Positions 9,665-10,807 of a DNA stretch of 15,107 bases are shown here, piece after piece. Source of the stretch: Tubiluchus corallicola (taxonomy: Eukaryota; Animalia; Priapulida); assembly GCA_030141605.1 (NCBI GenBank), contig JAQGDQ010002097.1, positions 1 to 15,107 on the forward strand, given 5' to 3'. Every line of letters starts with the position of its first letter. Position 1 is the first letter of the stretch. The translations under genes and the position numbers were made by a program. The notes beneath the pieces were generated by a model, which searched no databases, had not been told where the DNA came from, and saw nothing but the letters and a program-made list of their open reading frames with translations.

Positions 9665-9800
9665 GATGGCATAGAAAGGAAGGATCCTAGGGGAAGAACC
9701 CCGCTGCATTTAGCCGTCACGTTGGGACACTTGGACTGCACTCGTGTGCTGCTTAAACACGGAGCAAATACGTGCGTGGAGAATAAGCAGAATTGGACTG
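9665..9800 (+). CDS. ANKRD13: ANKRD13-family (A/B/D-like) internal exon A: ankyrin repeat
   Basis: TTTTAG| 136 nt |[51 protein letters not shown]. Ends in phase 1 and joins the next exon in frame. Confidence 0.92.
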
Positions 9801-10807
9801 GTAATGTCTATTCTTGTAATCTCTAACTAGGCTTACTGGTGTGAATGTTTGACTGGATTACTGACTGACTGACTGACTGACTTCTGACACTTAGACTGCA
9901 CTCGTGTGTGCTTAAACATGGGGCAAATACATGCGTGGAAAATAAGCAGAATTGGACTGGTAATGTCTGTTCTTGTAATCGCTAACTAGGCTTACTGGTG
10001 TGAATGTTTGACTGGATTACTGACTGACTGACTTCTGACACTTAGACTGCACTCGTGTGCTGCTTAAACACGGGGCAAATACATGCGTGGAAAATAAGCA
10101 GAATTGGACTGGTAATGTCTGTTCTTGTAATCGCTAAGCAGGCTTACTGGTGTGAATGTTTGACTGGATACTGACTGACTGACTTCTGACACTTAGACTG
10201 CACTCGTGTGCTGCTTAAACATGGGGCAAACACGTGCGTGGAGAATAGGCAGAATTGGACTGGTAATGTCTATTCTTGTAATCGCTAAGCAGGCTTACTG
10301 GTGTGAATGTTTGACTGGATTACTGACTGACTGGCTGACTGACTTCTGACAGACTGCACTCGTGTGCTGCTTAAACACGGGGCAAATACGTGCGTGGAGA
10401 ATAGGCAGAATTGGACTGGTAATGTCTATTCTTGTAATTGCTAAGCAGGCTTACTGGTGTGAATGTCTGACTGGATTACTGACTGACTGACTAACTGACT
10501 TCTGACACTTAGACTGCACTTGTGTGCTGCTTAAACATGGGGCAAATACATGCATGGAAAATAAGCAGAATTGGACTGGTAATGTCTATTCTTGTAATCG
10601 CTAACTAGGCTTACTGGCGTGAATGTCTGACTGACTGACTGACTTCTGACACTTGGACTGCACTCGTGTGCTGCTTAAACACGGGGCAAAGACATGCGTG
10701 GAGAATAGGCAGAATTGGACTAGTAATGTCTATTCTTGTAATCGCTAAGCAGGCTTACTGGTGTGAATGTTTGACTGGATTACTGACTGACTGACTGACT
10801 TCTGACA
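9726..10807. repeat. 144-160-bp tandem repeat, 7 copies, made of the last 75 nt of exon A + donor + intron start with a (CTGA)n tract
   Basis: Units start at 9726, 9886, 10037, 10188, 10348, 10504, 10648; length variation is mostly (CTGA)n copy number. Confidence 0.97.

What the first reader, a model, noticed from the sequence alone, without database searches (positions are those of the whole stretch)
9726..10807. Exon-junction tandem repeat that builds in-frame 66-nt candidate cassette exons in an ankyrin-repeat gene
Seen: each unit copies the end of exon A with its GTAATG donor. In copies 2, 3, 4 and 6 the exon's TTGG is TTAG, and in copy 5 a 4-nt deletion gives ACAG. An AG therefore sits at the same position in five copies, just after a (CTGAC) tract matching the branch-point consensus. 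AG-to-GT segments 10046-10111, 10197-10262, 10353-10418 and 10513-10578 are each 66 nt, phase 1-1, stop-free, and encode ~[17 protein letters not shown](K/R)QNWT. They are separated by ~85-95-nt intron-sized spacers. Copy 2 has a 1-nt deletion and copy 7 lacks the AG. Inference: a self-assembling exon-intron array allowing variable insertion of 22-aa partial ankyrin units, or a set of decoy splice sites. Caveats: the polypyrimidine tract is weak and 22 aa is not a full 33-aa repeat.
Basis: partly seen in the sequence, partly recalled or inferred. Interest (0 to 1): 0.8.

Follow-up and report, generated by a model that had tools for sequence, protein, structure and literature searches.

The report
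Repeated splice junction in ANKRD13 intron
In an invertebrate (likely a priapulid worm), the end of one ANKRD13 exon with its splice signal is copied six more times into the next intron and four copies look like in-frame mini-exons, but their splice acceptors score weakly, so this is likely a skipped example of a repeat type already known from lancelets and human genes.

Summary
In detail: seven ~155-bp units (9726-10807), each 75 nt of exon end plus the donor and 69-85 nt of intron; five carry an AG at the seam, four give 66-nt stop-free phase 1-1 segments, copy 2 is 65 nt. The gene is ANKRD13; exons A+B+C alone align without gaps to relatives. The 'self-assembling cassette' reading is weak. 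The five AGs likely descend from one G>A change that would be silent in exon A. The seam acceptors score -1.1 to -0.8 against 3.4-4.9 for the gene's own; about a quarter of ordinary AGs score as well. The first cassette shifts the frame, no constraint is detectable, and none of 195 relatives carries such an insert. This is a junction-spanning minisatellite ('mirage' of lancelets; human F7 intron 7), where the first donor is normally used. The same gene has a second one at exon C, and locus L038 has an independent one at the same donor. No RNA covers the array, so low-level inclusion is not excluded. The scan has noted this kind on other DNA several times.

The parts
9665..9800 (+). ANKRD13 exon A (136 nt, phase 0-1), one full ankyrin repeat; its last 75 nt are the exon part of unit 1
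   Evidence: Pfam Ank PF00023 E=1.9e-10, residues 10-41 on profile 2-33
9801..9802 (+). authentic donor of exon A (CTG/GTAATG), weak-to-moderate; ancient phase-1 intron position
   Evidence: 41 of 80 related loci have a phase-1 GT at the same codon; PWM 1.32, 13 of 70 real donors as low
9726..10807 (+). junction-spanning minisatellite, 7 units of 144-160 bp, 91-98% alike, each with an inner (CTGA)n tract; GACA microhomology at both ends
9895..9959 (+). copy 2 pseudo-exon, 65 nt, frameshift if included
   Evidence: stop at codon 117 of 172
10046..10111 (+). copy 3 pseudo-exon, 66 nt, in frame
   Evidence: acceptor -1.06
10197..10262 (+). copy 4 pseudo-exon, 66 nt, in frame
   Evidence: acceptor -1.06
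10353..10418 (+). copy 5 pseudo-exon, 66 nt, in frame, seam shortened by 4 nt
   Evidence: acceptor -0.76
10513..10578 (+). copy 6 pseudo-exon, 66 nt, in frame, two amino-acid changes
   Evidence: acceptor -0.92
10648..10807 (+). copy 7: no seam AG, donor -1 changed to A; runs into the unique intron
11866..11990 (+). ANKRD13 exon B (125 nt, phase 1-0)
12954..13143 (+). ANKRD13 exon C (190 nt), start of the ANKRD13_C domain
   Evidence: PF11904 E=3.5e-10; one X1 contig runs from it into the next exon
13120..13257 (+). second junction-spanning minisatellite, at the exon C donor (31 bp x 4.4)

Best explanation
The array is a tandem duplication of the exon A / intron junction of an ANKRD13 gene, and its extra donors and seam AGs are likely ignored, so that exon A would be spliced from its first donor (9801) straight to exon B (11866). 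Shown: the anatomy, the GACA microhomology at both ends, a patchwork of shared variants among copies, and that A+B+C alone gives a normal ANKRD13. Inferred: (1) a slippage or unequal exchange between the GACA in the exon and the GACA ~155 nt downstream made the first copy; (2) one G>A transition in the copied exon part (TTG>TTA, silent in exon A's frame) made the seam AG and was spread among the inner copies by unequal crossing-over or conversion, sparing the two end copies; (3) the upstream donor wins because it is the one paired with exon A's strong acceptor, while the 66-nt pseudo-exons have a weak acceptor and a weak donor and are poorly defined; (4) rare use of downstream donors or of copy 2 gives early stops and would be removed by NMD.
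For: A+B+C aligns without gaps to the 25 best relatives shown, about 68-70% identity; 194 of 195 proteins spanning the region have no insertion there, and the one that has (P0334, 19 aa) is not a repeat copy; all 80 related loci have a single exon-A match and 41 of 80 have a donor at the same codon. Seam acceptors score -1.06 to -0.76; the gene's own score 3.96, 3.37, 4.86; 48-53 of 214 ordinary AGs score as high as the seam; 5 T in positions -20..-4 against 10-11. Acceptor+donor sum 0.3-0.6 against 5.3-12.3 for exons A-C; 1 of 25 internal exons of relatives is lower. Variation in the cassette part equals the intron part, 10 of 66 vs 10 of 59 columns; a frameshift sits in the first cassette. 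23 of 36 pairs of informative columns fail the four-gamete test, as expected from exchange among copies. 64% (3480 of 5443 nt) of the window from exon A onward is tandem repeat. A second junction repeat lies at exon C, where one contig of run X1 passes from the first donor into sequence reading like the next exon of relatives. L038 has an independent 41-bp repeat over the same donor. Precedents: F7 IVS7 uses only the first donor (PMC1557585); lancelet mirages of 150-160 bp with AG/GT signals did not disturb splicing in RT-PCR (PMC3087553).
Against: The splice models come from 70 introns of other animals, not priapulids; 9-10 of those 70 real acceptors score as low as the seam and 12 of 70 have five T or fewer. 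The seam AG is preceded by an AG-free zone of 53 to over 58 nt with branch-point-like motifs at -15 to -31, and the spacers (85-94 nt) exceed the shortest introns mapped in relatives (56-65 nt). The authentic donor is itself weak and identical to the copies. 5 of 9 codon changes are synonymous against 3.0 expected (P=0.14): not significant, but in the direction of constraint. In human 6-16 and CBS the nearest pseudo-donors are used (PMC1557585, introduction). The X1 contig differs at 9 of 138 nt from the window and may come from an animal without the exon C repeat.
Confidence: 0.75

Rival explanations
1. Leaky cryptic exons: the seam AGs are used at a low but measurable rate; in-frame copies 3-6 escape NMD and give minor transcripts with 22-aa inserts that are tolerated noise, raw material for exon birth but without a function.
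For: Long AG-free zone with branch-point-like motifs; workable spacer lengths; donors identical to the real one; 15 of 31 cassette subsets are open; 9-10 of 70 real acceptors are as weak.
Against: Both splice sites weak on a 66-nt exon; a better-scoring AG in four units leads to stops; lancelet mirages with AG/GT signals showed regular splicing (PMC3087553).
Confidence: 0.18
2. Functional cassette ladder: the array is a selected device that inserts 1-4 partial ankyrin units to tune ANKRD13.
For: Four in-frame, phase-symmetric segments; 5 of 9 changes synonymous; other parts of this genome were noted by the scan to hold real alternative-exon arrays (unchecked notes).
Against: One mutation explains all AGs; frameshift in the first cassette; no constraint (P=0.81 and P=0.14); the insert covers exon A residues 24-45, roughly Pfam Ank positions 16-33 plus four residues, so it lacks the TPLH helix and would break the helix-helix alternation (inference and general knowledge of the ankyrin fold); no insert in 195 relatives; copies 91-98% alike, i.e. 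young or homogenised.
Confidence: 0.04
3. Assembly artefact: the array is a mis-assembled expansion of a single or shorter junction.
For: The window ends in an inverted copy of exon C with a 36-copy array, which may be a mis-join; no independent DNA run was listed.
Against: All seven copies differ from each other (3-15 substitutions per pair) with shared, patchwork variants and different (CTGA)n lengths, which read errors or collapse do not produce.
Confidence: 0.03

Closest known systems
Lancelet 'mirage' minisatellites (BflGb6, BflGb9, Adh3; Ebner et al. 2010, PMC3087553: six passages incl. most of section 16 read, supplements not read; PGBD5 paper PMC3902484: one passage)
   Same: Tandem duplication of an exon-intron boundary; unit size 150-160 bp (BflGb6, six units; BflGb9, 157 bp, 3' boundary of exon 2); many units carry AG/GT signals; end copies escape homogenisation; the authors already propose that an exonic part of a unit may turn into a real exon.
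   Different: Here the animal is likely a priapulid; the unit spans a donor and the acceptor AG was made by a point change at the seam, giving four frame-preserving pseudo-exons; splicing is untested here, whereas RT-PCR there suggested regular splicing.
Human F7 IVS7 37-bp VNTR, with 6-16 (IFI6), CBS IVS13, lamin B2 (100 bp) and PDGF intron 4 (81 bp) minisatellites (Borensztajn et al. 2006, PMC1557585: abstract, introduction and discussion read; the other genes only as cited there)
   Same: First monomer spans the exon-intron boundary, so identical donors follow the authentic one; the most upstream donor is selected.
   Different: Those units hold little exon sequence and the paper describes no internal acceptor; here 75 nt of exon are copied and an AG precedes 66 of them.
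Gene-structure change by internal tandem repeats (De Grassi and Ciccarelli 2009, PMC2812944: first half of Results read)
   Same: Minisatellite expansion at exon-intron boundaries can alter exons and introns.
   Different: Those cases are backed by RNA in human paralogues; here no RNA covers the array.
ANKRD13 family (A/B/D), ubiquitin-binding ankyrin proteins (PMC3315809: search listing and start of abstract only)
   Same: Exons A-C are about 69% identical to ANKRD13B/D proteins; Ank and ANKRD13_C domains.
   Different: The first coding exon with the N-terminal ankyrin repeat and the exons after C are not in the window.

Membership tests
Junction-spanning minisatellite (mirage / F7 type) | head-to-tail tandem repeat whose first unit spans an authentic exon-intron boundary | tested here: met
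   donor position conserved in 41 of 80 related loci
Junction-spanning minisatellite (mirage / F7 type) | splice signal reiterated in the intron | tested here: met
   six further GTAATG donors, five with the same flanks
Junction-spanning minisatellite (mirage / F7 type) | turnover among copies, end copies distinct | tested here: met
   23 of 36 column pairs fail the four-gamete test; copies 1 and 7 keep G at the seam
Junction-spanning minisatellite (mirage / F7 type) | length polymorphism between alleles or cells | not testable with these tools
   no second DNA run or allele covering the array
Junction-spanning minisatellite (mirage / F7 type) | normal splicing from the first site | tested here: inconclusive
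   no RNA over exon A; one X1 contig shows first-donor use at exon C only
Alternative cassette-exon array (tandem exon duplication) | each copy flanked by an acceptor of normal strength | tested here: not met
   -1.06 to -0.76 vs 3.4-4.9 for the gene's own acceptors; model from other animals
Alternative cassette-exon array (tandem exon duplication) | frame-preserving, stop-free copies | tested here: met
   4 of 5 AG-bearing copies; copy 2 fails
Alternative cassette-exon array (tandem exon duplication) | purifying selection on the copies relative to spacers | tested here: inconclusive
   10 of 66 vs 10 of 59 variable columns, P=0.81; 5 of 9 synonymous vs 3.0 expected, P=0.14; low power
Alternative cassette-exon array (tandem exon duplication) | inclusion seen in transcripts | not testable with these tools
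   no RNA holder listed
ANKRD13 family | N-terminal ankyrin repeats followed by the ANKRD13_C domain | tested here: met
   PF00023 on exon A and PF11904 on exon C, both above cut-off; best hits named ANKRD13B/D
ANKRD13 family | C-terminal ubiquitin-interacting motifs | not testable with these tools
   the gene's 3' part is outside the window

The most novel reading that the evidence does not exclude
A single silent-type point change at the seam turned a junction minisatellite into a row of working cassette exons, so that this worm makes ANKRD13 mRNAs with a +66n ladder whose top length follows the repeat allele: exon birth from a mirage caught in the act, the step that was proposed for lancelet globins as a hypothetical model.
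Probability: 0.07. Interest if true: 0.6.

Novelty: new member of a known kind. Interest (0 to 1): 0.2.

Why it matters
As most likely read, it adds a probable priapulid case to a repeat type known from lancelets and humans, and shows the same ANKRD13 donor hit twice independently (this window and L038). Its one special merit is as a ready-made test locus: unlike donor-only arrays it has in-frame AG-GT units next to a frameshifted and an AG-less control copy, so one RT-PCR would test the published but hypothetical model that mirage units can be recruited as exons.

Tried and rejected
No whole genome is held for this window, so no species-specific splice model or genome-wide count of such arrays was possible. 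No RNA holder listed; the only run, X1, gave no cover of 9613-10920 at 85% likeness; neither is evidence on expression. No same-species ANKRD13 protein was found (best identity 77% on exon A among ANKRD13 hits listed, 89% on exon C; 120 of 167 and 120 of 2100 hits listed). No close relative among 80 metagenome loci (nucleotide matches only over exons). Extension of exon A to any downstream donor hits a stop at codon 54, so alternative-donor isoforms were rejected as productive. The better-scoring second AG of each unit gives stop-containing segments in 6 of 6 cases. L048's 65-bp repeat at a donor proved to be a (GT)-rich intronic repeat, not a junction copy. None of 70 mapped introns of relatives had a splice site inside a repeat (L038's intron is not among them because its contig ends). 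The EXT2 acceptor score was off by one base; the corrected value is 4.63. The effect of the 22-aa insert on the fold was not modelled and rests on inference. Canestro 2002 and Zhuo 2007 are not held and are known only as cited in PMC3087553. Paper searches listed no report of such a repeat in a priapulid or in ANKRD13, nor an RNA-proven seam-born cassette ladder; the library lacks most subscription journals, and supplements of PMC3087553 (mirage alignments) were not read and may show AG-GT units like these.

Full report
Observation. Tandem Repeats Finder gives one array at 9726-10807, period 151-156, seven copies. The copies are 91-98% alike.

The gene. Exon A (9665-9800) matches Pfam Ank, exon C (12954-13143) matches ANKRD13_C; named hits are ANKRD13B/D. 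Exons A, B (11866-11990) and C joined without any cassette give 150 open codons that align with no gap to the 25 best relatives shown. Of 240 proteins searched, 195 span the region; 194 have no insertion over the junction and the remaining one is not a repeat copy. Of 80 related loci, each has exactly one exon-A match and 41 have a phase-1 GT at the same codon (many are near-duplicates of one another), so 9801 is the old, authentic donor. The neighbouring EXT2 gene (3536-5692) is closest to Priapulus caudatus, 67% identity and 1109 bits against 974 for the next hit, so the animal is likely a priapulid other than that species. Six listed differences between exon C and a contig of run X1 are all silent, which points to a working gene.

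How the array arose. The exon reads ..GGGACACTT.. where unit 1 starts and the intron reads ..TCTGACAGTC.. where unit 7 ends; GACA is shared, the usual mark of a slippage or unequal-exchange duplication (inference). The pure junction, without AG, survives in copy 7. The AG needs one G>A transition, at a third codon position that would stay Leu in exon A, so it may even be an old allele of the exon. Copy 5 keeps the same AG after a 4-nt loss, or re-uses the AG at the array's intron end. The five AGs are therefore one event, not five. Of 41 single changes that create an AG in the scanned stretch around the seam, 12 give a multiple of three; freedom from stops follows from copying the exon in frame. 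Shared variants form a patchwork (23 of 36 column pairs show all four combinations, some at CpG sites), as in minisatellites under turnover. The window is full of such arrays: 3480 of 5443 nt from exon A onward are tandem repeats.

Are the segments likely to be exons? I mapped 99 introns in the related loci, dropped 29 near-duplicates and built position weight matrices from 70. The seam acceptors score -1.06 to -0.76; the gene's own score 3.96, 3.37 and 4.86 and the EXT2 acceptor 4.63. 48-53 of 214 ordinary AGs in non-repeat DNA of the window score as high as the seam, against 1-6 for the real acceptors. The donor scores 1.32, with 13 of 70 real donors as low. Summed, the cassettes reach 0.3-0.6 against 5.3-12.3 for exons A-C; 1 of 25 internal exons of relatives is lower, and 51 AG-GT pairs of equal or better scores occur in 5.2 kb of other non-coding DNA of the window. 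A second AG about 30 nt after each donor outscores the seam in four units and leads to stops. Against this: the matrices are from other animals, 9-10 of 70 real acceptors are as weak, and the seam AG follows a long AG-free zone with branch-point-like motifs at workable distances, so some leak is plausible.

Selection. Variable columns are 10 of 66 in the cassette part and 10 of 59 in the intron part (P=0.81); 5 of 9 codon changes are silent against 3.0 expected (P=0.14); the first cassette downstream of the real donor is a frameshift; 15 of 31 subsets keep the frame, namely all without copy 2. Power is low, but nothing shows constraint. The 22-aa unit is the second helix and hairpin of an ankyrin repeat without the TPLH helix (from the Pfam coordinates and general knowledge), so an insert would likely damage the stack; this was not modelled.

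RNA. The one run offered does not reach the array (see Tried and rejected). One of its contigs covers 13008-13145 and continues with 19 letters that read G-D-I-A-T-L-M, like the residues after exon C in relatives: a spliced form that leaves at the first donor of the second junction repeat (31 bp x 4.4). It is one contig, 9 differences in 138 nt, possibly from an animal without that repeat, so it is only an analogy.

Recurrence. L038 carries a 41-bp unit three times over the homologous exon A donor, up to the end of its contig; it is 1 of the 41 loci with this intron. Earlier scan notes list the same kind in scallop, octopus, ray, annelid and others (unchecked) and gave me the term 'mirage', which I then read in the paper.

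Comparison. Borensztajn et al. (PMC1557585) show that in F7 only the most upstream of identical donors is used, while 6-16 and CBS also use the nearest pseudo-donors. The array meets the structural definition of this class; polymorphism and splicing could not be tested. It fails the acceptor-strength test for a cassette-exon array.

Verdict. A real, well-described feature of a known kind, likely silent (0.75), possibly leaky (0.18), unlikely to be a functional ladder (0.04). Interest 0.2; it would be 0.6 if the +66n ladder were shown at appreciable level (probability about 0.07).

Noticed in passing
window 13880-15107 (minus strand): The window ends in an inverted copy of the 3' part of exon C (97% over 142 nt) followed by 36 copies of the 31-32-bp exon C donor repeat, facing the forward 4.4-copy array across ~600 nt of other sequence. 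It carries C at the position matching 13073, as the X1 contig does. Other allele mis-joined in reverse, or a real inverted duplication: unresolved.
   Followed up: partly
window 13120-13257: Second junction-spanning minisatellite in the same gene, with strong repeated donors (PWM 5.7-7.4); one X1 contig leaves at the first donor.
   Followed up: partly
window 9576-9664: A strong donor at 9591 lies 74 nt upstream of exon A's acceptor, preceded in frame by M-K-I-P-Q after a stop. The usual ANKRD13 first coding exon is not found anywhere in the window by a profile that finds a match in 65 of 80 related loci, so this animal may start the protein here without the first ankyrin repeat, or the first exon lies upstream of EXT2.
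   Followed up: partly
window 3494-5692: EXT2 (exostosin-2, 718 aa) with an intron-free coding region behind a strong acceptor at 3494, same strand as ANKRD13; possibly nested in an ANKRD13 intron.
   Followed up: partly
L038 885-1011: Independent 41-bp junction repeat over the homologous ANKRD13 exon A donor in another animal.
   Followed up: yes
window 5938-6403, 11222-11665, 12394-12782, 13457-13745: Four more minisatellites (72, 113, 124, 78 bp units); the stretches around 10921-11901 and 12229-12555 attract many partly matching X1 contigs and seem to be dispersed repeats.
   Followed up: no
L001-L023 (most): A group of related ANKRD13 loci read straight through the exon A/B junction, and most also through B/C, without introns; intron loss or transcript-derived contigs, not resolved.
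   Followed up: no
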